Of a stretch of 64,000 nucleotides of DNA, positions 2,562-58,984 are shown piece by piece. The first letter of the stretch is position 1. Each line of letters starts with the position of its first letter. Source of the stretch: Patescibacteria group bacterium (lineage in GTDB: Bacteria; Patescibacteriota; JABMPQ01); contig JAHJQX010000010.1 in the NCBI GenBank assembly GCA_018818965.1, positions 4,579-68,578 on the forward strand, in the 5' to 3' direction. The notes under the pieces were generated by a model that was given only the letters and a program-made list of their open reading frames with translations, did no database searches and had not been told where the DNA came from. A program made the position numbers and the translations under genes.

Positions 2562-4388
2562 ATGTGTGGAATAATAGGTTATGTCGGAAAAAAAGAAGCG
2601 CTGCCTATCCTCCTGCAAGGGCTACGACGCTTGGAATACCGCGGTTATGACAGTGCGGGAGTGGCAATAGCTAACAAAGGCAAGATCTGTCGGGTAAAGT
2701 CTGTCGGTCGAATAGATAAGTTAACGGAGAAGGCTAAAGGCAAAAATCTAGCTGGTACTATTGGCATTGCCCACACTCGTTGGGCTACCCATGGCGGGGT
2801 GACGGAGGTTAACGCCCATCCGCATACTTCTTGTGGCGACAAAATCACTCTTGTTCATAATGGCATTATCGAAAATTACCAAGAGCTTAAAGAAAAATTG
2901 AGCGCGAAGCATAAATTTCTTTCCGACACTGATTCGGAAGTAATGGCACATTTGATTGAAAGTTATTACCAAGATGACCTGCGCGCAGCGGTCGAGCAAG
3001 CGCTGGCTGAAGTACGTGGTACTTATGGTATCGCCGTGATGTCAAGTGACGAGCCAGACAAGATTATTATTGCCCGCCTGGGTAGTCCGATTGTAATTGG
3101 CCTGGGTCGGGATGAATATTTTGTGGCCAGTGATCCGACACCTTTACTACCGCACACTAAAGAAATGGTTTTTCTCGATGATGGTGAGCTAGCGGAGATT
3201 ACTAGTGAGGGAGTAAAGACATATAACCTAGAGCAGCACAGAGCTGTTAAAAAAGAAGTGGAGACAATCGACTGGGATGAAGCTAAGGCGCAAAAGCAAG
3301 GCTACCAGCATTTCATGTTTAAAGAGATCTCCGAGCAATCGCATGTTTTGCAAGATGCCATTCGCGGTCGCTACGACGAGGAGGAAGGCACGGCTCATCT
3401 TGGCGGTCTCAATATGACTGAGGAGGAAATGCGCAAGATTAATCGGGTGGTCTTTATCGCCTGTGGAACAGCTTCCTACGCGGCCATGATTGGAAAATAT
3501 GCTTTTGAGCGGTTGGCTGGGATCTCGACGGAGGTAGATGTTTCCAGTGAGTTTCGTTATCGTGATCCGGTAGTGGATAAGCACACACTAGTTTTTGCTG
3601 TCTCGCAATCGGGGGAGACTTTGGACACCCTGGCAGCTTTGCGTGAAGCCAAGCGACGAGGCGCCCAGGTACGAGGGATTATCAATTCGATTGGTTCGAC
3701 CATTGCCCGGGAAACGGATGGTGGTACCTATATCCACGCTGGCCCGGAACTAGCAGTTGCTTCGACTAAGGCGTATACCAATATGACGGCCATTATGTTT
3801 CTTTATGCTTTGCAATTTGGCCGACTACGAGGGGTATCGCTCGGAACAGGGAAAAAATTAATCAAAGCGCTCTTGGAAATCCCGACCAAGATAGAATCGA
3901 TTCTTGAGCAAAGTAACGAAATTAAAAAACTAGCTAAGAAATATAGTAAATATGAAGCTTTCTTGTATTTGGGACGAGGAGTTAACTTTCCCGTAGCTTT
4001 GGAGGGATCACATAAGCTTAAAGAGATTTCATATATCCACAGCGAAGCTTATCCGGCAGGCGAGATGAAGCATGGCGTCAATGCACTGCTCTCCGAAGAC
4101 TTTCCCGTTTTTGCGATTGCCACCCAGAATCAGCTGTACGAGAAAATGATCAGTAATATCGAGGAGGTAAAGGCGCGTCAGAGCAAAATTGTTATCCTGG
4201 CCAATGAAGGCGATGAAAAAATAGCCGATCTGGCTGATGACGTTATCTATATTCCCGAAACCATGGAGTTGCTAGAGCCCCTGCTTAATACTATCCCACT
4301 GCAAATCTTTGCTTATCATATGGCAGTTCTACTGGGGCGGGACGTTGACCGACCGCGTAATTTAGCCAAGAGCGTAACGGTTGAATAA
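2562..4388 (+). CDS. glmS: glutamine--fructose-6-phosphate aminotransferase (isomerizing)
   Basis: 608 aa. N-terminal MCGIIGY (Cys2 Ntn amidotransferase), two SIS domains and a C-terminal ...RPRNLAKSVTVE. Confidence 0.95.
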   Translation: MCGIIGYVGKKEALPILLQGLRRLEYRGYDSAGVAIANKGKICRVKSVGRIDKLTEKAKGKNLAGTIGIAHTRWATHGGVTEVNAHPHTSCGDKITLVHNGIIENYQELKEKLSAKHKFLSDTDSEVMAHLIESYYQDDLRAAVEQALAEVRGTYGIAVMSSDEPDKIIIARLGSPIVIGLGRDEYFVASDPTPLLPHTKEMVFLDDGELAEITSEGVKTYNLEQHRAVKKEVETIDWDEAKAQKQGYQHFMFKEISEQSHVLQDAIRGRYDEEEGTAHLGGLNMTEEEMRKINRVVFIACGTASYAAMIGKYAFERLAGISTEVDVSSEFRYRDPVVDKHTLVFAVSQSGETLDTLAALREAKRRGAQVRGIINSIGSTIARETDGGTYIHAGPELAVASTKAYTNMTAIMFLYALQFGRLRGVSLGTGKKLIKALLEIPTKIESILEQSNEIKKLAKKYSKYEAFLYLGRGVNFPVALEGSHKLKEISYIHSEAYPAGEMKHGVNALLSEDFPVFAIATQNQLYEKMISNIEEVKARQSKIVILANEGDEKIADLADDVIYIPETMELLEPLLNTIPLQIFAYHMAVLLGRDVDRPRNLAKSVTVE

Positions 4389-4390
4389 AT

Positions 4391-5044
4391 ATGAAATACA
4401 AAGCAGCCATCTTTGATATGGACGGGGTTTTGGTTGATAGTGAATATTATTGGCAAAAATTTGAATTAAAGATCTGGCAGCGTTTGGGAGTGGACACTAA
4501 TCAGGAATTTCGTGAGCAGATAGTGGGCTTGGGGATTAGTAGTATTGCCAAGCTTCTTAAAGAGGAGCATGACATAAATATTTCAGCGGATAAGTTGGCG
4601 GCTGAATTAAATGAAGAAGCCAAGCAGGTTTATCTAGAATATTGCGATTTGATCCCGGGAGTCACCGAATTATTAGATAAATTAAAAAACAACTCAGTCC
4701 AATTATCTTTAGCCTCAGCTTCGCCACAGAATTGGGTAGATATGGTGATAGATAGATTTAGCCTAAAAAAATATTTCTCCTTGACTTTATCAACTCGCAC
4801 TATGCAGATACCACCCAAGCCTGATCCAGCTGTCTTCATTCGGGCGATGGAGGAGATGCAGGTAAGTCCAAATACGACATTGATATTTGAAGATTCTAGC
4901 TATGGCGTGTTGGCTGGCAGCCGTAGCGGGGCAACGGTGGTAGCTGTCAAGGATGGTCGCTGGTTAACGGGTGATATTGAGCCGGCTGATTTGGTCATCA
5001 AGTCGTTTACGGATGAGAGGTTAGAAGAGTTTTTGATAGAGTAG
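4391..5044 (+). CDS. HAD-superfamily hydrolase (beta-phosphoglucomutase-like subfamily IA)
   Basis: 217 aa. Motif I FDMDGVLVDSE and the HAD motif III/IV region. Separated from glmS by only 2 nt. Confidence 0.8.
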   Translation: MKYKAAIFDMDGVLVDSEYYWQKFELKIWQRLGVDTNQEFREQIVGLGISSIAKLLKEEHDINISADKLAAELNEEAKQVYLEYCDLIPGVTELLDKLKNNSVQLSLASASPQNWVDMVIDRFSLKKYFSLTLSTRTMQIPPKPDPAVFIRAMEEMQVSPNTTLIFEDSSYGVLAGSRSGATVVAVKDGRWLTGDIEPADLVIKSFTDERLEEFLIE

Positions 5045-5046
5045 TC

Positions 5047-5197
5047 TGCAGTCATTCTGATATATTTTGAAGGATTTTGAGAGGTTGAGCGGGCATGGTT
5101 TCCCGATTCTGATCGGGAAGAGCGAAACCTCTCCCAAAGTTAGATTTCCTCGCCGGGGAAATCTAACGCTCCTTCAGGATGTATCAGAATGACTGCA
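5047..5197. repeat. 151-nt nested perfect-palindrome element (candidate structured RNA, or a MITE/REP-like repeat)
   Basis: The 16-bp terminal inverted repeat TGCAGTCATTCTGATA (5047-5062) pairs with 5182-5197. Inside it, GAGAGGTT (5079-5086) pairs with AACCTCTC (5126-5133), and this stem encloses TCCCGAT-tctg-ATCGGGA (5101-5118). A further perfect 11-bp stem GTTAGATTTCC (5139-5149) pairs with GGAAATCTAAC (5157-5167). The element begins 3 nt after the HAD gene stop and ends 27 nt before the glmM start. Confidence 0.45.
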
Positions 5198-5224
5198 AAT
5201 AAGACTGGTTGATAAACATAAATT

Positions 5225-6562
5225 ATGCCACACAAGCTATTCGGCACCGACGGTATCCGCGGAAAATATGGCGAGGAACCAGTCACACCGGCCACAGCAG
5301 CCAAGTTAGGTCGGGCAGTGGTGGATTACTTTGGTGGCGAGAATAAATCTCCCCAAATCGTGATTGGACGTGATACTAGAGAGAGTGGTTCTGAGTTAGA
5401 GAGTGCTTTGATTGAAGGCGTCACTTCTCGGGGCGGGAAAGTTATTCGCTTAGGCGTAGTACCAACCCCGACCGTAGCCTATATTACCAAAGTGCGATCA
5501 GCTGCAGCTGGTATAGTGATTTCTGCTTCCCATAATCCTTATTATGATAATGGTCTAAAAATATTTGCGGCTGACGGCTATAAGTTACCGGATGAGGTAG
5601 AAAAAGAACTAGAGAAATCGATTTTAGCAGATGATTATACTTTCACTAGTAAAATTATCGCGGATGGTGCTCAAAATAGTAATGAATATATAGAATTTGC
5701 CAAAGAGTCTGTTGGCGAATTGTCTCTCAAGGGGATGAAAATAGCCCTCGACTGTGCCAATGGCGCGGCATATAAATTGGCTCCGCAGATTTTCCGGGAA
5801 TTAGGAGCGGAAGTTGAGATAATAAACAATCAGCCTAACGGTAAAAATATTAACGATAATTGTGGCAGCCAGTTTTTGGCTGGCCTACAAGCCTCAACAA
5901 AAGAAAAAAACTGCGATATCGGCATTGCTTTTGATGGTGACGCTGATCGGGTGATTATTTGTGACGAGAAGGGCAAAGAATTGAACGGTGATCATATTTT
6001 GGCCCTGAGTAGCCTTGATTTGTTGGAGAAAGATGAGCTGATTGGCAAAACCGTCGTCGTAACTGAGTACAGCAATTTGGGCCTAGACAAATTACTGGAG
6101 TCACGGGGAGTTAAGGTAGTACGGGTATTAAACGGTGACCGATATGTTATTGAAGAGATGCGCAAAAACGGGTATATTTTAGGAGGAGAACGTTCTGGTC
6201 ATATTATTTTTGGTCAGCTAACTACGACGGGTGATGGTATTATTGCCGCCTTACAAATCGCATCGCTACTCAAAGAAAGAAATCAGTCACTTTCCGAGCT
6301 GGCGAGTGTTTTAAAAGAGTACTCTCAAGTTTTGCTTAGTGTGCCAGTCGCCGAGAAGAAAGATCTGTCTGAGTTGAGTATGACCCAACAGGCTGTTGAG
6401 CAAGCCAAGGAGGAACTAGCTGATCAGGGTCGAGTGTTGATAAGGTATTCCGGAACAGAGATGAAAGCACGAGTATTAGTGGAAGGACAAAGCCAAACGC
6501 AAGTCAATAAATTTGCTAATGAAATTGCCCAGACGTGGCAGAAAGAGGTTAATAATAATTAA
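5225..6562 (+). CDS. glmM: phosphoglucosamine mutase
   Basis: 445 aa. FGTDGIRG start, the phosphoserine loop ...SASHNP..., and the alpha-D-phosphohexomutase domains. Confidence 0.9.
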   Translation: MPHKLFGTDGIRGKYGEEPVTPATAAKLGRAVVDYFGGENKSPQIVIGRDTRESGSELESALIEGVTSRGGKVIRLGVVPTPTVAYITKVRSAAAGIVISASHNPYYDNGLKIFAADGYKLPDEVEKELEKSILADDYTFTSKIIADGAQNSNEYIEFAKESVGELSLKGMKIALDCANGAAYKLAPQIFRELGAEVEIINNQPNGKNINDNCGSQFLAGLQASTKEKNCDIGIAFDGDADRVIICDEKGKELNGDHILALSSLDLLEKDELIGKTVVVTEYSNLGLDKLLESRGVKVVRVLNGDRYVIEEMRKNGYILGGERSGHIIFGQLTTTGDGIIAALQIASLLKERNQSLSELASVLKEYSQVLLSVPVAEKKDLSELSMTQQAVEQAKEELADQGRVLIRYSGTEMKARVLVEGQSQTQVNKFANEIAQTWQKEVNNN

Positions 6563-6573
6563 AATAATAATTC

Positions 6574-8610
6574 ATGATAGACAATTGCCAAGAATTTGCT
6601 TCCGGTCACCGAAGTTGTCGGGGTTGCACAGCGGTGCCGCAGCCAATTCGCTATACTATTTCGGCGATGAAGGAAGAGGGGATCCCAGTTGTAATTGCTA
6701 ATGCTACGGGGTGTACTGAGGTTACCTCGACTATTTCACCTTATACCTGTTGGAATGTGCCTTATATACACAGCGTGTTTGCTAATGTTGCGGCCACCGC
6801 CTCCGGGATAGAGTCAGCCTACAAGGCGTTGGCCAAAAGTGGCAAACTTAAAGAGATAAATGGCGGTAAGGATATAAAAAAACCAGCTATTATTGCTCTC
6901 GCCGGTGATGGCGGCTCCTATGATATTGGTCTGCAAGCTCTCTCGGGAGCATTTGAGCGACGTCATGATTTTGTCTATATTTGCTACGACAACGAAGCTT
7001 ATATGAATTGCTTGTCTACGGATTCTCTGGTAATGACTGCAGCCGGATTGAAGAAAATTACTGAGGTAAAAAAAGGAGAAAAAGTATGCACTTTTGATCA
7101 GAAAGACTACAAGCTAGTTTTAAAGAAATGCACTGGCGTTTTTGATAATGGTATAAAACAAGTATATAATCTTAAAACCTTTCATCACGACATTAAGGCT
7201 ACTACCAATCATCCCTTTTTAGTATTACAGCGGGGAGGTCGGGGAGGAAAAAATAAATTTATTTGGAAAGTGCTTGGTAAAATCAAACCAGGGGACGAAG
7301 TGGTGGTATCGAAAAAAATAGACGAGGGTAAATCTTTTGATTTTCATTTTAAGAAAACAAAGGTCGGAGATTACAAAGTGTCTCATCTAAATAAAATTAT
7401 ATTACCGAAAAATTCCAGTCCGGACTTGATGAAATATCTGGGATTATATGTTGGTGATGGTTGGCTGCGAGAAAAAAAGGGAGAAGTTGGTTTTGCGTTG
7501 CCGGCTAACACTTCTGGCCGACGAGCTTTAGTTGCCTTACATCGTAAAATTTTTCAGAGTAAGGTAAAAACTGATGAACTATATGCTTATATTAATTCAG
7601 TTAATCTGGCTAAATTTATTAAGTCGCTCGGTTTTGGTCAGGGGGCAGAAAATAAGCGGGTACCGTTCTGGATTTTTACTTTGCCACAAAAAGAAAAGGA
7701 AGCTTTTTTGGAAGGACTGATGTTATCTGATGGATACAAGCATGGTAATAGCTGGCGATACGTTTCTGCTAGTGGAGGGCTATTGCAAACTCTACGTTTA
7801 TTACTGCAAACTTTTGATTATCGAGTGGGTGGTATCCATTGGCAAACTAAAAAGAAAGGCACCAAGGTGGTTTACCGCAGATTGCTTAAGGATGCTAAAT
7901 ATGGCTATATTTGCTTTAGTAAAAAGCGTAAGTGGAATTTAGAGAAATATCCCAACCAATATAAATATCAAAATTTCTTAGTTGATAATGACTATTTTAA
8001 TGTCGAAAAGGTAAAATCTGTAAAGCTAGTTGGTCGAGAACCAACATTGGATTTGAGAGTAGAGGGCGAACATAACTTTATTGCTGATGGGGTTGTAGTT
8101 CACAATACCGGCAATCAACGTTCTTCCGCTACTCCCTTTGGTAGCGCCACTTCTACCACCCCAGCGGGAAAAAAGATTGGCGGCAAACAACGCCAACGCA
8201 AAGATTTAACTAAAATAGCGGTCGCTCATAATATTCCCTACGTGGCTACTGCCGCTGTTAGCCACCGCGCTGATTTTATGACCAAAGTAAAGAAAGCCGT
8301 GGCGGTCGATGGGCCAGCATTTATTAATATCTTAGCCCCTTGCACTTTGGGCTGGAAATTTCCGGAGGATATGGGAATTACTATCGCGCGCTTGGGAGTT
8401 GAGACAAACTACTGGCCACTCTACGAGGTTGAGGACGGAGAATATAAGTTGAGTTATCAGCTAAAACAGCGCAAGCCGATCACGGAATTTGTTAAATTGC
8501 AGGGACGGTTTAAGCACTTATTTAAAGACAAGGATCAACTGGTTATAACAGAGATGCAAAAATATGTTGATGATCAATGGCGTCGGTTATTATCTTTGTG
8601 CGGTAAGTAA
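6574..8610 (+). CDS. porB: 2-oxoacid (pyruvate):ferredoxin oxidoreductase beta subunit (TPP-binding, PorB-like), interrupted by an intein
   Basis: Exteins 6574-7008 and 8107-8610 (about 312 aa together) carry the Cys cluster (CRGC...C) and the GDGG TPP motif. The YDNEAYMN|TGNQRSS junction is reconstituted by removing residues 146-511. Confidence 0.8.
   Translation: MIDNCQEFASGHRSCRGCTAVPQPIRYTISAMKEEGIPVVIANATGCTEVTSTISPYTCWNVPYIHSVFANVAATASGIESAYKALAKSGKLKEINGGKDIKKPAIIALAGDGGSYDIGLQALSGAFERRHDFVYICYDNEAYMNCLSTDSLVMTAAGLKKITEVKKGEKVCTFDQKDYKLVLKKCTGVFDNGIKQVYNLKTFHHDIKATTNHPFLVLQRGGRGGKNKFIWKVLGKIKPGDEVVVSKKIDEGKSFDFHFKKTKVGDYKVSHLNKIILPKNSSPDLMKYLGLYVGDGWLREKKGEVGFALPANTSGRRALVALHRKIFQSKVKTDELYAYINSVNLAKFIKSLGFGQGAENKRVPFWIFTLPQKEKEAFLEGLMLSDGYKHGNSWRYVSASGGLLQTLRLLLQTFDYRVGGIHWQTKKKGTKVVYRRLLKDAKYGYICFSKKRKWNLEKYPNQYKYQNFLVDNDYFNVEKVKSVKLVGREPTLDLRVEGEHNFIADGVVVHNTGNQRSSATPFGSATSTTPAGKKIGGKQRQRKDLTKIAVAHNIPYVATAAVSHRADFMTKVKKAVAVDGPAFINILAPCTLGWKFPEDMGITIARLGVETNYWPLYEVEDGEYKLSYQLKQRKPITEFVKLQGRFKHLFKDKDQLVITEMQKYVDDQWRRLLSLCGK
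7009..8106 (+). mobile_element. intein (366 aa) with a LAGLIDADG homing-endonuclease domain, inserted in the porB TPP motif
   Basis: Begins with Cys (CLSTDSLV, block A) and has TTNHPF (block B). Two LAGLIDADG motifs: LGLYVGDGW at about 7440 and LEGLMLSDG at about 7715. Ends ...VVVHN followed by Thr (+1). The insert is more AT-rich than the flanking extein. Confidence 0.85.
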
Positions 8611-14115: not shown

Positions 14116-14203
14116 ATTTTTATAGTTATTTATTATCTATCTTCCCTATGCTAACATAATATAACACAAATGTCAATAGTACTATAAAGGGTATACTAAC
14201 CCT

Positions 14204-15041
14204 GTTGGAACAAGAGTAGGATAGAATGAAATATATTAATTAACTCTTGTTCTATGATTGCATTTATCAATCAGGTTCCCTCGGAAACTAAAATCAAGAA
14301 ACAATTAAGAAAGATTATCTTTGGTCAAAATATGTTTTGTCCTCACTGTAATTCTAGGCAAGTGTATCGTTGTGAGAGTAGATACAGGTGTCGTAAGTGT
14401 AGAAGACCATTCACCCTACTATCAGGTACTTGGCTGAAGGACATGAAATTATCCCTGCGTACCTTCTGGGCTTTACTCTGGTGTTGGACACAGAAGGTTC
14501 CAGTGTTACAAACTATTAAACTATGCCATGTCAGCGAGAAGACTGCTAGGCATTGGTTCAGACAGTTCAGGCTACATTTGCCTCAATTTGAGGAGATTCT
14601 AGAAGGGACAGCTCAAATGGATGAAGCCTACTTCAGAAGTCTATCTCTGATTATGGCTAAACAACAAGGTAGTAGAAAACTAGCTCATCAGATCATAACC
14701 GGGAATTCCGTAAACAAAACTGAAGCAGCAAATTTCCTTTTTCAATATGTTCAACCTAATACTAAATTACATACAGATGGAGCTGGTATATATCGTAGTA
14801 TTGATCAGTGGTGGCCAGTCAAGCACAAGAGAGATATTCATTCCAAATGGGAATTTGGATTAACCTCAGAAATTGAAGGAATGTTTGGTAATTTACGTAC
14901 TTTTATTCGCAGAATGTATCATCATGTTACTCCACAATACCTACCAGAATATGTGAGTGAATTCTGCCTCAGATTTTCCTCACCTAAAATGTTCAGTTCT
15001 CCCTTAGAATATCTTAAAAAGTCCCTTTAGCTTGTTCCAAC
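14204..15041 (+). mobile_element. IS1595-family insertion sequence (about 840 bp)
   Basis: Terminal 11-bp inverted repeats: GTTGGAACAAG at 14204-14214 and CTTGTTCCAAC at 15031-15041. The 10-bp direct repeat TACTAACCCT sits at 14194-14203 (abutting the left IR) and again at 15058-15067 (16 bp beyond the right IR). Confidence 0.5.
14254..15030 (+). CDS. IS1595-family (ISXO2-like) transposase
   Basis: 258 aa. N-terminal zinc ribbon (CPHCNS...CRKC), the ...AQMDEAYF... motif (cf. VEVDETYF) and a DDE-type catalytic region. Confidence 0.8.
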   Translation: MIAFINQVPSETKIKKQLRKIIFGQNMFCPHCNSRQVYRCESRYRCRKCRRPFTLLSGTWLKDMKLSLRTFWALLWCWTQKVPVLQTIKLCHVSEKTARHWFRQFRLHLPQFEEILEGTAQMDEAYFRSLSLIMAKQQGSRKLAHQIITGNSVNKTEAANFLFQYVQPNTKLHTDGAGIYRSIDQWWPVKHKRDIHSKWEFGLTSEIEGMFGNLRTFIRRMYHHVTPQYLPEYVSEFCLRFSSPKMFSSPLEYLKKSL

Positions 15042-15185
15042 TTGTAATGATTACCCCTACTAACCCTCTTGACATAGGCTACAACAAAGAACGTTATAAC
15101 AATTTTTAAATCTTTTCAGTATAAATAAAATGTCTAATTAGTAAAGGTCTTTTATATAGAAAGTTCTACCATCCACGCTCTTCCA

Positions 15186-51551: not shown

Positions 51552-51767
51552 TTATCCTTCTAGTCTCATACGCGTAGCCTCTCGTGCCAATCTTTTCTCT
51601 TCGGCAAATAATTCGTCTAACTCTTCTTCTAGCAACTCTTTCCGTTTTTCCAGATCGCGAATGTCTATTCTTACTCTTCTAACTTCTTTTTCTCGCTTAC
51701 CAATGTCCTCTCGGAGATCTTCTAATTCTCCCTGAATCCTTTTACTTGGATCACTAAAGTCTGGCAT
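51552..51767 (-). CDS. small coiled-coil protein (71 aa), hypothetical
   Basis: Charged heptad-like sequence (EDLREDIGKREKEVRRVRIDIRDLEKRKELLEEELDELFAEEKRL). Sits between mnmA and alaS with 11-nt and 9-nt gaps. Confidence 0.4.
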   Translation of the reverse strand: MPDFSDPSKRIQGELEDLREDIGKREKEVRRVRIDIRDLEKRKELLEEELDELFAEEKRLAREATRMRLEG

Positions 51768-51778
51768 ATTTTAGTAGT

Positions 51779-52861
51779 TTACTTTTTTATTATTCCCCCT
51801 CCTAATAATTCATTCTGATGATAAAAAACTACCGACTGGCCCGGCATGACCGCTCGTTGAGCAGTAACAAGATCAACTCGGTATCCTTGGGGATCAGCAG
51901 TGACCTCAGCCGCCACTGGTTTTGTATTATACCTCACTACCGCCTCCGCCACCAGAGGCCAAGTTGGCTCCTGCCCACTCACCCAATTAATTGTTCTACA
52001 TTTAACAATTCGAGAATATAGTTTTTTATCCTGCGGATTATTAGTAACTACTAAATTATTATTAGGCCAATCTCGATTCACCACATAATATGGCCCCTTA
52101 CCGCCAACCCTTACTCCTTTCCTCTGGCCAACAGTATATGAATGTAGCCCGTGATGCTGGCCAATCACCTTTCCAGATATGTCGACAATTGACCCTTCTT
52201 CCGCCCCACCTAAATGCCTGTCTACAAAATCTTCGACTGTATTACCAACAAAACAGATATCCTGGCTTTCTTTGACAGCAGTTACAGGCAAATCTAGCTG
52301 GAAAGCAATTTTTCTGACTTCACTTTTTTTATATCCTCCTAGGGGAAATAATAAATACTTAAGCTGCTGCTGGGTTAAATTATAGAGAAAATATGATTGA
52401 TCTTTTTTAACATCCTTAGCCTTAAAAAGCTTATATTTACCCTTGCTCTCACCCTTTTCTACGTAGTGCCCCGTCGCCAAACAATCAAATCCCAACTCTC
52501 TGATCTTATCAAGAAGCAAACCAAATTTTATCTCACGGTTACAAACTACGCAAGGATTAGGCGTATGGTGTTGCCGATATTCAGAGAGAAAATTGTCCAC
52601 TACTTGCTCTTTAAATTCCTTTTTAAAATCCAAGGAGTAAAAAGGAATTTTCAACTTGTTCGCCACCGCTCGCACCCGCTTTTCTGCTGCACTAGAGCAA
52701 CAACGATTCTCTCGCCGACAGCCAGACTGATCCTGCCAAAAGTACATAAAAAAACCAGTCACATCACAGTCACTTTTTTGTAACAGAGCAGCGGCCACTG
52801 ATGAATCTACTCCTCCTGACATAGCTACCGCCACCCGAAGTCGACGTTTGTTTCTCATCAT
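51779..52861 (-). CDS. mnmA: tRNA-specific 2-thiouridylase MnmA
   Basis: 360 aa. PP-loop SGGVDSSV, with catalytic Cys residues in the ...CCSS... region and a downstream conserved Cys. Confidence 0.9.
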   Translation of the reverse strand: MMRNKRRLRVAVAMSGGVDSSVAAALLQKSDCDVTGFFMYFWQDQSGCRRENRCCSSAAEKRVRAVANKLKIPFYSLDFKKEFKEQVVDNFLSEYRQHHTPNPCVVCNREIKFGLLLDKIRELGFDCLATGHYVEKGESKGKYKLFKAKDVKKDQSYFLYNLTQQQLKYLLFPLGGYKKSEVRKIAFQLDLPVTAVKESQDICFVGNTVEDFVDRHLGGAEEGSIVDISGKVIGQHHGLHSYTVGQRKGVRVGGKGPYYVVNRDWPNNNLVVTNNPQDKKLYSRIVKCRTINWVSGQEPTWPLVAEAVVRYNTKPVAAEVTADPQGYRVDLVTAQRAVMPGQSVVFYHQNELLGGGIIKK

Positions 52862-58511: not shown

Positions 58512-58553
58512 TTAAAGAAGGGGTTAACCTGCTCTGAATTATATACCAAAAAG

Positions 58554-58984
58554 CTCAAGCAAACAATAAGCCGAATTTAGTACCTCGTACCATTTCGGAT
58601 TTGAGTGATACGGGGCGATGATCATCTATCTGGTCCCATCATTGCTAATGGGATCAAGCGACCTACATTTTGGTCTTGCACCAGGCAGGGTTTACCAGAT
58701 TCCCATGTCACCATGAGATCAAATGGGTAGCTATCATGCTAACATCCCATTTCTTTTCACCTTTGCTCCCATCTGCCTGCCGGTAGGCAGGATCAGATCG
58801 GGACTAGTATTGTCTCTGCGGCACTTTCCCTAAGATTCAAGCCAGCTAAAAGTCTGCAGGACTCCTAACTATCTTTCTCCCGGTCGCCGTTAGCGACTGC
58901 CTTGCTGTCCCGATGGTCATCGGGACGGTGTTCGGACTTTCCTCCCCGATGAATATCGAGGCGATCATCTTGTTTACTTGAGCC
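58554..58984 (-). ncRNA. rnpB: RNase P RNA, bacterial type A
   Basis: ORF-free GC-rich block. The minus strand reads GCUCAAGUAAAC...GGGGAGGAAAGUCCGAAC (P4 5' strand)...AAGGUGAAAAG...GGUAAACCCUGCCUGGUGCAAGACCAAAAUGUAGG...ACUAAAUUCGGCUUAUU (P4 3' strand) GUUUGCUUGAGC. The two ends pair to form P1. Confidence 0.85.

What the first reader, a model, noticed from the sequence alone, without database searches (positions are those of the whole stretch)
5047..5197. 151-nt element of perfectly nested inverted repeats between the HAD gene and glmM
A 16-bp perfect terminal inverted repeat (TGCAGTCATTCTGATA) encloses three further perfect stems of 8 bp, 7 bp and 11 bp, so nearly the whole glmS-HAD/glmM intergenic region folds into a multi-stem structure. 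All stems are perfect, with no G-U pairs or mismatches, and local GC is higher than in the flanks. This suggests either a recently inserted MITE/REP-like element or a structured regulatory RNA (attenuator or processing site) within the glmS-glmM amino-sugar operon. It fits no riboswitch I recognise, and it is not the glmS ribozyme.
Basis: seen in the sequence. Interest (0 to 1): 0.6.

Follow-up and report, generated by a model that had tools for sequence, protein, structure and literature searches.

The report
Orphan palindromic insertion between two genes
A 151-base stretch of nested hairpins sits inside the amino-sugar operon of an uncultured Parcubacteria bacterium; all five related lineages examined lack it, so it is most likely a small non-coding mobile-type repeat (MITE/REP-like), not a conserved regulatory RNA, and it is only modestly interesting.

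Summary
Window 5047-5197 has a perfect 16-bp terminal inverted repeat, which extends to 28 bp with three G·U pairs on the + strand. It encloses three further perfect stems. The RNA fold is -83.9 kcal/mol (z = -10.9), and this is the strongest inverted repeat in the 64 kb.

It is not a conserved RNA. There is no Rfam hit. In five related Parcubacteria lineages (HAD protein 61-79% identical) the same glmS-HAD-glmM genes are separated by only 1-39 nt at this point. The element is therefore a lineage-specific insertion, starting 2 nt after the HAD stop codon, inside an operon.

I found no second copy in the window, GTDB representative genomes, JGI metagenomes, IMG/VR, plasmids, phages or 5.8 billion proteins. 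The organism's own genome is in neither large DNA collection, so copy number is untested and MITE status is unproven.

Each arm begins GTCATTCTGA-N8-GAAGGA. This matches the frame of a widespread, apparently unnamed, cross-phylum hairpin unit (GTC-ATTCT-GA-[small hairpin]-GA-AGAAT-C) that behaves like REP sequences.

Best reading: an orphan REPIN/MITE-like palindromic insertion that is co-transcribed. It has no U-tract, so it is not a terminator. It probably acts as an RNase III site or mRNA-decay barrier and uncouples HAD and glmM translation. Interest is low to moderate.

The parts
5047..5197 (+). Whole 151-nt nested-palindrome element, drawn on the strand of the operon. It begins 2 nt after the HAD stop codon and ends 27 nt before the glmM start codon.
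   Evidence: absent from orthologous loci
5047..5074 (+). Left arm of the outer stem. 28 nt; the first 16 are the perfect terminal inverted repeat TGCAGTCATTCTGATA.
5170..5197 (+). Right arm of the outer stem. It pairs with 5047-5074. The three non-Watson-Crick positions are all G·U on the + strand.
5047..5050 (.). TGCA, left copy. Either the tip of the inverted repeat or one copy of a palindromic 4-bp target-site duplication.
   Evidence: The empty-site spacer of relative L006 aligns to the window spacer with one TGCA at the matching place (score 24; 14/5000 shuffles reach it). Suggestive only.
5194..5197 (.). TGCA, right copy. See the entry for 5047-5050.
5051..5076 (+). Unit U1: GTC-ATTCT-GA-TATATTTT-GA-AGGAT. 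It has the frame of the widespread GTCAT-tagged hairpin unit: tag, 5-nt lower-stem halves, GA...GA brackets and N8 spacing. The upper stem is missing.
5168..5193 (-). Unit U3, an inverted copy of U1: GTC-ATTCT-GA-TACATCCT-GA-AGGAG on the - strand. It is the best hit in the whole window to an HMM built from class arms that were not selected with the window's own pattern (7.1 bits, E = 0.48).
5104..5126 (+). Unit U2, an internal and degenerate class-like unit: CG-ATTCT-GA-TCGG-GA-AGAGC-G. It repeats the 8-mer ATTCTGAT of the left arm. The class HMM finds it independently.
   Evidence: (D4)
5079..5133 (+). Inner branch: an 8-bp stem (5079-5086 / 5126-5133) enclosing an 8-bp hairpin (5100-5107 / 5112-5119, loop TCTG).
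5139..5167 (+). Second inner hairpin. 13 bp, of which 11 are perfect, one is G·U and one is C-G; loop GCC.
5198..5224 (+). Remnant of the ancestral HAD-glmM spacer (GGTTGATAAACATA...). It is homologous to the 39-nt spacer of relative L006. There is no Shine-Dalgarno motif, which is normal for this genome.
4391..5044 (+). HAD-family phosphatase gene. It has the same length (217 aa) and stop position as in the closest relative, so its C-terminus was not altered by the insertion.
5225..6562 (+). glmM-type phosphoglucosamine mutase gene. In relatives it starts 1-39 nt after HAD (1-4 nt in three of the five lineages).
2562..4388 (+). glmS, the first gene of the operon. By eye, a terminator of the upstream gene lies at about 2435-2466 and a TTGACA-N16-TAAAAT promoter at 2511-2538.
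   Evidence: sequence inspection

Best explanation
The element is a lineage-specific insertion of a small, non-coding palindromic repeat of the mobile REP/REPIN/MITE kind. It went into the short HAD-glmM spacer of the glmS-HAD-glmM operon of a Parcubacteria (Patescibacteria) bacterium.

Anatomy. Two inverted copies of a roughly 26-nt unit (GTC-ATTCT-GA-N8-GA-AGGAT) form a 28-bp outer stem. The unit frame matches a widespread cross-phylum hairpin repeat. The 95-nt interior holds a third degenerate unit and two further hairpins.

Shown:
- the structure;
- its absence from five orthologous loci;
- the lack of coding capacity;
- the lack of any Rfam match, terminator or promoter signal.

Inferred:
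- It arrived by transposition in trans, using either a HUH/Y1 enzyme acting on single-stranded DNA hairpins (as for REPINs) or a DDE transposase (if the TGCA pair is a target duplication).
- It has no U-tract and glmM has no promoter of its own, so it is transcribed as part of the operon mRNA.
- There, the -84 kcal/mol Y-shaped RNA breaks the tight HAD-glmM translational coupling seen in relatives.
- It probably also serves as an RNase III cleavage site and/or a barrier to 3'-exonucleases, changing the relative stability of the glmS-HAD and glmM segments. REP, ERIC and Correia elements do this in other bacteria.
For: Structure far beyond chance, and unique in the window.

Insertion:
- Relatives with HAD at 79, 78, 73, 70 and 61% identity keep the glmS-HAD-glmM order but have spacers of 14, 4, 39, 1 and 1 nt.
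- The alignment to L003 breaks exactly at window 5044-5219.
- The 27 nt to the right of the element are homologous to the L006 spacer.

Non-coding:
- No gene is called in the spacer in the public assemblies.
- All six frames contain stop codons.
- The translated segments match nothing among 5.8 billion proteins.

Not a known RNA.

No terminator or promoter consensus in 4300-5600.

Widespread unit:
- GTCATTCTGA-N8-GAAGRAT occurs in 22 IMG/VR loci against 5 for a scrambled control.
- The consensus is GTCATTCTGAGCGNNAGCGAAGAATCT, with inverted partner arms and tandem arrays.
- Within the unit, the lower stem covaries (ATTCT/AGAAT, ATCCT/AGGAT, ACCCT/AGGGT) and so does the upper stem (GC/GC, GGC/GCC, GCC/GGC, GGGAC/GTCCC).
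- An HMM of 17 arms not selected with the window's pattern puts 3 of its top 5 window hits inside the 151 nt, in the expected places and orientations. Background is 2.8 such hits per shuffled 64 kb.

Extragenic, intra-operon location next to a stop codon is typical of REP/BIME (own knowledge; REP roles are summarised in the abstract of PMC3733652). The REPIN definition, two inverted REPs plus a spacer, comes from the abstracts of PMC3337134 and PMC3116915. RNase III binding and cleavage of Correia elements comes from the abstract of PMC2649163.
Against: - No second copy of the element, its arms or its inner hairpins was found. Searches covered the 64-kb window plus 4.6 kb of extra flank, 185,579 GTDB representative genomes (two-arm pattern), JGI metagenomes (arm pattern), IMG/VR, and plasmids and phages.
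- A single copy does not define a repeat family.
- No RAYT/Y1 transposase is in the window. The only transposase, IS1595 family at 14254-15030, has unrelated ends.
- The individual HMM scores are at chance level (E = 0.5-4). The class itself was found by searching with the element's own 10-mer, so only the internal unit U2 is independent evidence (about p = 0.007).
- The arms lack the class's upper stem and GNNA loop.
- The target duplication is at best suggestive, and class members show no consistent duplication.
- All downstream RNA effects are inferred. No transcript data were available.
Confidence: 0.6

Rival explanations
1. A lineage-specific but selected cis-regulatory RNA. Whatever its origin, the Y-shaped structure is kept because it controls glmM relative to glmS-HAD, as a processing site, a decay barrier or an attenuator. 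This overlaps with the best explanation, because an inserted repeat can be exapted.
For: All four non-Watson-Crick positions in the extended stems are G·U on the transcribed (+) strand, so the + strand RNA folds 14.6 kcal/mol better than the - strand. The stems are otherwise perfect, although the flanking genes are only 74-80% identical to the nearest relative. The element sits inside an operon with no promoter or terminator of its own. It folds autonomously in its mRNA context.
Against: It is absent from all five orthologous loci, so there is no conservation or covariation. There is no Rfam match. Four out of four G·U is only about p = 1/16, and C-to-T bias on the non-template or leading strand would also produce it (GC skew is positive here). 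The 8-mer alternative pairings seen are at chance level.
Confidence: 0.2
2. A palindrome made de novo by replication errors, such as template switching or hairpin-primed synthesis, or by filler DNA at a repaired break. No transposable element would be involved.
For: Only one copy is known. The stems are perfect. Short 8-9-nt matches to neighbouring coding sequence exist: TGAGAGGTT at 5014 and 5078, and TTCCTCGCC complementary to 5270-5278.
Against: Those short matches are at the level expected by chance in 450 nt. No donor sequence longer than 12 nt exists in the window. About 147 nt of new sequence with three separate nested stems would need several independent switches. The termini match the frame of an existing widespread repeat unit.
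Confidence: 0.1
3. A member of a known structured RNA or recombination-site family: a riboswitch, ribozyme, intrinsic terminator or integron attC site.
For: Strong three-way-junction fold. The inner hairpin begins GTTAGAT and ends ATCTAAC, which resemble the attC core motifs GTTRRRY and RYYYAAC.
Against: No Rfam family matches at E <= 1; the only hit is Cgb105 at E = 1.1 and 14 bits against a gathering score of 163. No T-run follows the stem on either strand. The core motifs are in the opposite order to an attC site and there are no extrahelical bases. No integrase was found in the window.
Confidence: 0.03
4. An assembly artefact, i.e. a chimeric palindrome created by the assembler.
For: Palindromes can be produced by misassembly.
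Against: The identical sequence is present in two other assemblies made with different pipelines (ENA k141 contig and Logan contig), which are 100% identical to the window over 14.3 and 10 kb. The flanking genes are intact.
Confidence: 0.02

Closest known systems
REPINs (REP doublets forming hairpins) and REP/BIME elements mobilised by RAYT transposases (PMC3116915, PMC3337134, PMC3733652)
   Same: Two inverted copies of a short tagged unit are separated by a spacer, so the whole folds into a long hairpin. It is extragenic, inside an operon, next to a stop codon, and non-coding. The related widespread unit is itself a small hairpin and occurs singly, as inverted doublets and in tandem arrays.
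   Different: Only one copy is known, whereas REPINs number tens to hundreds per genome. No RAYT was seen. The tag is GTCAT, not GTAG or CGTC. The window's units lack their own upper stem. The 95-nt spacer carries two extra perfect hairpins.
Bacterial MITEs in general, such as Correia/CREE of Neisseria, ERIC, RUP and Nezha (reviews PMC2229807, PMC10969869; CREE PMC2649163)
   Same: Size about 150 bp. Perfect 16-bp terminal inverted repeat. No coding capacity. Presence/absence difference between related genomes. A possible 4-bp target duplication. Folds into a long dsRNA when co-transcribed, which in CREE is bound and cut by RNase III.
   Different: No multiple copies and no parent IS with matching ends were found. 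There is no TA duplication as in CREE. No outward promoter consensus was found. The host is a reduced-genome Patescibacteria member. I found no literature on MITEs in this group: the two papers that hold both words mention them only in passing.
The widespread GTCAT-tagged hairpin unit GTCATTCTGAGCGNNAGCGAAGAATC(T). I found no name for it. It was seen here in Thermodesulfovibrio, Mucilaginibacter, Brocadiia and Brevinematales genomes and in many IMG/VR contigs.
   Same: Same 10-nt tag plus lower-stem half (GTCATTCTGA), same N8 spacing, same GA...GA brackets, and a complementary AGGAT half. Members also occur as 130-150-nt nested structures bounded by GTCATTCTGAT...ATCAGAATGAC (L026, L027, L030).
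   Different: The window's N8 (TATATTTT / TACATCCT) does not form the class's GC-rich upper stem with a GNNA or GAA loop. The bases before the tag are CA, not TT. HMM scores are weak (E = 0.5-4). No interior homology to any class member.

Membership tests
MITE | Terminal inverted repeats bounding a short (about 50-500 bp) element | tested here: met
   16-bp perfect, 28-bp imperfect terminal inverted repeat; 151 nt in all
MITE | No coding capacity | tested here: met
   Stop codons in all six frames. No protein match among 5.8 billion clusters. No gene called in the spacer.
MITE | Target-site duplication flanking the inverted repeats | tested here: inconclusive
   The bases immediately outside the repeats (TC / AA) are not duplicated. 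The terminal TGCA pair could be a palindromic 4-bp duplication, because the homologous empty spacer of L006 has one TGCA at the aligned place. That part of the alignment is marginal.
MITE | Several copies per genome at different sites | tested here: inconclusive
   No other copy in the 64-kb window plus 4.6 kb of flank, nor in any collection searched. The organism's own genome is in neither large DNA collection, since its own locus was not returned. More than 90% of the genome is therefore untested.
MITE | An autonomous IS with matching terminal inverted repeats | tested here: not met
   The only transposase in the window (IS1595 family, 14254-15030) has unrelated ends. The single-arm 16-mer gave only chance-level single hits in IMG/VR. 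Not testable genome-wide.
REP / REPIN | [quoted passage not shown] | tested here: met
   Units at 5051-5076 (+) and 5193-5168 (-) with a 91-nt spacer; the fold is
REP / REPIN | Each unit is itself a short imperfect palindrome with a conserved terminal tag | tested here: inconclusive
   The tag GTC, the lower-stem halves ATTCT/AGGAT (4 Watson-Crick pairs plus 1 G·U) and the GA brackets are present. The upper stem and loop seen in class members are missing.
REP / REPIN | High copy number in extragenic space | tested here: inconclusive
   The location is extragenic (met). Only one copy was found in the sequence available. The whole genome was not available.
REP / REPIN | A RAYT (Y1/HUH transposase) gene in the same genome, flanked by the units | not testable with these tools
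   None among the 60 window ORFs scanned with Pfam, and none next to the class arrays in L028 and L052. The rest of the genome is unavailable.
Correia element (CREE) | TA target duplication and Neisseria-type 26-bp inverted repeats | tested here: not met
   The flanks are TC / AA, or TGCA. Sequence similarity to CREE was not tested directly.
Any Rfam 15 family, including the glmS ribozyme | Covariance-model score at or above the gathering threshold | tested here: not met
   No hit in the region at gathering threshold. The best hit at E <= 10 is Cgb105, 14.1 bits against a threshold of 163.
Intrinsic terminator | GC-rich hairpin followed directly by a U/T run | tested here: not met
   0 terminator-like sites in 4300-5600 on either strand. 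The sequence after the stem is AAATAAGACTGG.
Integron attC site | RYYYAAC ... GTTRRRY core sites in that order, extrahelical bases, and an adjacent cassette or integrase | tested here: not met
   The motifs in the inner hairpin are in the reverse order and the stem has no bulged bases. No integrase in the window.

The most novel reading that the evidence does not exclude
The element is a diverged, AT-shifted doublet of a very widespread but apparently undescribed superfamily of GTCAT-tagged REP-like units. Each unit is a hairpin of about 26 nt: a 5-bp stem, tandem G·A brackets, a 1-5-bp covarying upper stem (usually 2-3) and a GNNA or GAA loop. These units occur across at least Nitrospirota, Bacteroidota, Planctomycetota, Spirochaetota and many metagenomic contigs. 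On this reading the window records the superfamily reaching a reduced-genome Patescibacteria lineage. That would imply a conserved single-stranded-DNA (HUH-type) or RNA-binding machinery recognising the same hairpin across phyla.
Probability: 0.35. Interest if true: 0.5.

Novelty: new member of a known kind. Interest (0 to 1): 0.3.

Why it matters
On its own this is one more small palindromic insertion, and its effect on the amino-sugar operon is only a guess.

It matters a little for three reasons:
- Patescibacteria have tiny, streamlined genomes, and I found no literature describing non-autonomous repeats in them.
- The insertion splits a translationally coupled pair of essential cell-wall precursor genes. 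That gives a natural test of what such hairpins do to operon expression.
- Following its termini exposed a cross-phylum hairpin unit with clear internal covariation. The unit has no Rfam model, and the tag strings GTCAT and ATGAC do not appear in the two REP surveys I text-searched. That unit deserves its own census and a search for the enzyme that moves or binds it.

Tried and rejected
**Known RNA families**
- Rfam at gathering threshold on the window and at E <= 10 on the region: nothing.
- Rfam on six class-bearing loci: nothing relevant.

**Searches for further copies**
- In the window: 16-mer with up to 3 mismatches, and blastn-short of the spacer. None found.
- Two-arm pattern in GTDB genomes: six loci in unrelated phyla. 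None is homologous inside, and the window's own genome is absent.
- Arm pattern in JGI metagenomes: six single-arm hits, none a copy.
- IMG/VR scans with the 16-mer and with the two inner hairpins: chance hits or nothing.
- blastn against plasmids and phages: no match.
- Six-frame peptides of the element against 5.8 billion proteins, to catch copies overlapped by called ORFs: nothing.

**Literature**
- Searches by DNA string and by the spurious peptide strings: only primer and bla-gene coincidences.
- 'MITE + Patescibacteria' and 'nested palindromes': nothing useful.

**Leads dropped**
- The nested inverted repeats at window 51766-52059 lie inside a tRNA methyltransferase gene and are chance.
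- The IS1595 transposase at 14254-15030 as the parent IS: its ends are unrelated.
- A RAYT next to the class arrays in L028 and L052: none.
- Short complementarities between the element and the HAD 3' end or glmM 5' end (8-9 nt): judged to be at chance level.
- Promoter inside or at the right end of the element: none by scan; by eye only weak matches.

Full report
**1. The observation**

TGCAGTCATTCTGATA at 5047-5062 is matched by its exact reverse complement at 5182-5197. At DNA level the arms extend to 28 nt at 89% complementarity.

Inside are three more stems:
- an 8-bp stem at 5079-5086 / 5126-5133;
- an 11-bp perfect hairpin, 13 bp with one G·U, at 5139-5151 / 5155-5167.

The + strand RNA folds into one Y-shaped structure of -83.9 kcal/mol, against -40.8 ± 4.0 for dinucleotide shuffles (z = -10.9). 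The - strand gives -69.3 (z = -8.8). As single-stranded DNA the fold is -46 kcal/mol (z = -10.4). It is the longest inverted repeat in the 64-kb window.

Two independent public assemblies are 100% identical to the window over 14.3 and 10 kb and contain the element, so it is not an assembly artefact.

- The extended stems contain four G·U pairs, all on the + strand.
- The GC excess is marginal: 46.4% against 42-44% for the neighbouring genes, with no peak in the sliding profile.

**2. Context**

Pfam confirms glmS (2562-4388), a HAD phosphatase (4391-5044), a glmM-type mutase (5225-6562) and then an intein-bearing TPP enzyme, all on the + strand.

By eye, the upstream gene ends with a hairpin plus T7 run at about 2435-2466, and glmS is preceded by TTGACA-N16-TAAAAT at 2511-2538. 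The scan found no promoter-like or terminator-like site in or next to the element. The element therefore lies inside an operon and should be transcribed with it.

It starts 2 nt after the HAD stop codon and ends 27 nt before the glmM ATG. The organism is an uncultured Patescibacteria/Parcubacteria bacterium, according to the source names. Only 8 of 55 genes have a Shine-Dalgarno-like motif, so its absence before glmM is normal for this genome.

**3. Comparative evidence: the key result**

The HAD protein has only a handful of relatives among 5.8 billion proteins. I fetched their contigs. All keep the glmS-HAD-glmM order. Their HAD-glmM spacers are:

| Locus | HAD identity | Spacer |
|---|---|---|
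| L003 | 78% | 4 nt |
| L005 | 79% | 14 nt |
| L006 | 73% | 39 nt |
| L007 | 70% | 1 nt |
| L008-L010 | 61% | 1 nt |
| window | - | 180 nt |

The blastn alignment of L003 to the window breaks exactly at 5044-5219. The 27 nt to the right of the element (GGTTGATAAACATA...) align with the L006 spacer (GGTTGACCAATAAACATA...); only 14 of 5000 shuffles score as well.

The simplest history is a single insertion of about 147-151 nt into a short ancestral spacer on the window's branch. This rules out a conserved riboswitch, ribozyme or attenuator. Rfam agrees: there is nothing at gathering threshold, and the best hit at E <= 10 is meaningless.

**4. Is it a repeat family?**

I found no second copy. The searches were:
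- the window, with up to 3 mismatches and with blastn-short;
- a two-arm pattern in 185,579 GTDB representative genomes;
- an arm pattern in JGI metagenomes;
- IMG/VR with the 16-mer and both inner hairpins;
- plasmids and phages;
- the six-frame peptides against 5.8 billion proteins.

The window's own locus was not returned by either large scan. Its genome is therefore not in those collections, and copy number in the remaining 90% or more of the genome is simply untested.

The window contains no RAYT or integrase. It has one IS1595-family transposase (14254-15030), whose ends are unrelated to the element.

**5. Where the termini lead**

The GTDB scan returned six loci from unrelated phyla (Brocadiia, Mucilaginibacter, Thermodesulfovibrio, Brevinematales and two Arthrobacter), each bounded by GTCATTCTGAT...ATCAGAATGAC. 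Their interiors are not homologous to the window. Four of them carry GAAGAATC / GATTCTTC motifs and nested hairpins. The Brevinematales element has the same Y architecture (z = -9.0). The Thermodesulfovibrio locus holds ten copies of the 10-mer in tandem hairpins.

I tested the grammar directly. GTCATTCTGA-N8-GAAGRAT occurs in 22 IMG/VR loci, against 5 for a scrambled second half. The matches show a sharp consensus, GTCATTCTGAGCGNNAGCGAAGAATCT, with inverted partner arms and tandem arrays.

Each arm is itself a hairpin with internal covariation:
- lower stem ATTCT/AGAAT, ATCCT/AGGAT or ACCCT/AGGGT: 97% Watson-Crick, against at most 92% in 1000 shuffles;
- conserved GA...GA brackets;
- an upper stem that covaries (GC/GC, GGC/GCC, GCC/GGC, GGGAC/GTCCC);
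- a GNNA or GAA loop.

From my own knowledge, GCGAAGC is a classic ultra-stable single-stranded DNA mini-hairpin. This is REP-like behaviour. The unit has no Rfam match. The tag strings GTCAT and ATGAC do not appear in two REP surveys, PMC3733652 and PMC12306157, and sequence-string searches of the literature found nothing.

**6. Does the window's element belong to that class?**

Its arms read GTC-ATTCT-GA-TATATTTT-GA-AGGAT and, for the reverse complement of the right arm, GTC-ATTCT-GA-TACATCCT-GA-AGGAG. They keep the tag, the lower-stem halves, the GA brackets and the N8 spacing, but not the GC-rich upper stem.

I built an HMM from 17 class arms that do not match my own search patterns. Its top hits in the window are:
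- rank 1: the right arm (7.1 bits, E = 0.48);
- rank 4: the left arm;
- rank 5: an internal unit at 5106-5126, CG-ATTCT-GA-TCGG-GA-AGAGC.

Shuffled windows give 2.8 hits of that strength per 64 kb, and the relatives' loci give none.

The class was discovered through the element's own 10-mer, so the arm hits are circular. Only the internal unit is independent (about p = 0.007). I rate membership as plausible (about 0.35-0.5), not shown.

**7. Target site**

The bases just outside the inverted repeat are not duplicated. The terminal TGCA pair could be a palindromic 4-bp duplication, because the aligned L006 spacer has one TGCA at that position. That part of the alignment is marginal. Class members show no consistent duplication; L030 alone is flanked by GTTGT. 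The absence of a duplication would fit HUH-type insertion, and a duplication would fit a DDE enzyme. This remains open.

**8. How it most likely works**

Shown: a lineage-specific, non-coding insertion with extreme fold, inside an operon, with no terminator tail and no promoter.

Inferred:
- It arrived by transposition in trans.
- It is co-transcribed.
- It abolishes the 1-4-nt HAD-glmM coupling seen in three of the five related lineages.
- The 28-bp outer helix is a plausible RNase III substrate or 3'-exonuclease barrier, as documented for Correia elements (abstract of PMC2649163) and proposed for REPs (abstract of PMC3733652).

The 4/4 G·U bias on the + strand hints at RNA-level constraint. 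It is only about p = 1/16, and C-to-T bias on the non-template or leading strand could also produce it (GC skew is positive).

**9. Verdict**

It is a new member of a known kind, namely small palindromic extragenic repeats. Interest is about 0.3. The more interesting by-product is the unnamed cross-phylum GTCAT-tagged hairpin unit.

Noticed in passing
IMG/VR loci L038-L059 (e.g. L052:8924-9388), L028:900-1400, L037:157-266, L026:5085-5213, L027:3285-3428, L030:3303-3449: A widespread hairpin unit, GTC-ATTCT-GA-[GC GNNA GC]-GA-AGAAT-C. Its lower and upper stems covary and the tandem GA brackets are conserved. It occurs singly, as inverted doublets, nested and in tandem arrays, across several phyla. 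It has no Rfam hit, and I could find no name for it in the literature I could search.
   Followed up: partly
window 6574-8610: The TPP-dependent enzyme gene just after glmM is interrupted by an intein with a LAGLIDADG homing endonuclease (678 aa). The L007 ortholog is only 477 aa and hits Intein_splicing but not LAGLIDADG, so relatives differ in intein content.
   Followed up: no
window 14254-15030 (flanks 14194-14207 and 15058-15071): An IS1595-family transposase gene (zinc ribbon plus DDE domain) flanked by 14-nt direct repeats TACTAACCCT[G/C]TTG. The ENA contig L001 ends inside this gene (window 14329), which suggests it is repeated in the genome. Its ends do not resemble the element's inverted repeat.
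   Followed up: partly
L008:61-180: In a relative, just upstream of glmS, there is another Y-shaped nested inverted repeat: a 17-bp outer stem plus two hairpins, -49 kcal/mol, z = -4.7. A CCCGCC...GGCGGGG hairpin follows it. It is unrelated in sequence to the window's element, so a second nested palindrome sits in the same operon neighbourhood.
   Followed up: partly
L029:2568-2712 and L031:3725-3871 (two Arthrobacter genomes): An orthologous, GC-rich element of 145-147 nt bounded by GTCATTCTGAT / ATCAGAATGAC, with conserved flanks and a diverged but still foldable interior. It could be a conserved structured element. Not examined further.
   Followed up: no
window, all gene starts: Only 8 of 55 genes have a Shine-Dalgarno-like motif within 20 nt upstream. 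The leaders are A/T-rich, so this organism appears to initiate translation largely without Shine-Dalgarno pairing.
   Followed up: partly
window 58552-58980 (- strand): RNase P RNA class A. The match spans 429 nt for a 367-position model, so it carries about 60 nt of insertions. It lies in the largest same-strand intergenic gap of the window.
   Followed up: no
L030:3298-3454: The Brevinematales nested element is flanked by a 5-nt direct repeat, GTTGT, on both sides. This may be a target-site duplication. The other class members examined do not show one.
   Followed up: no
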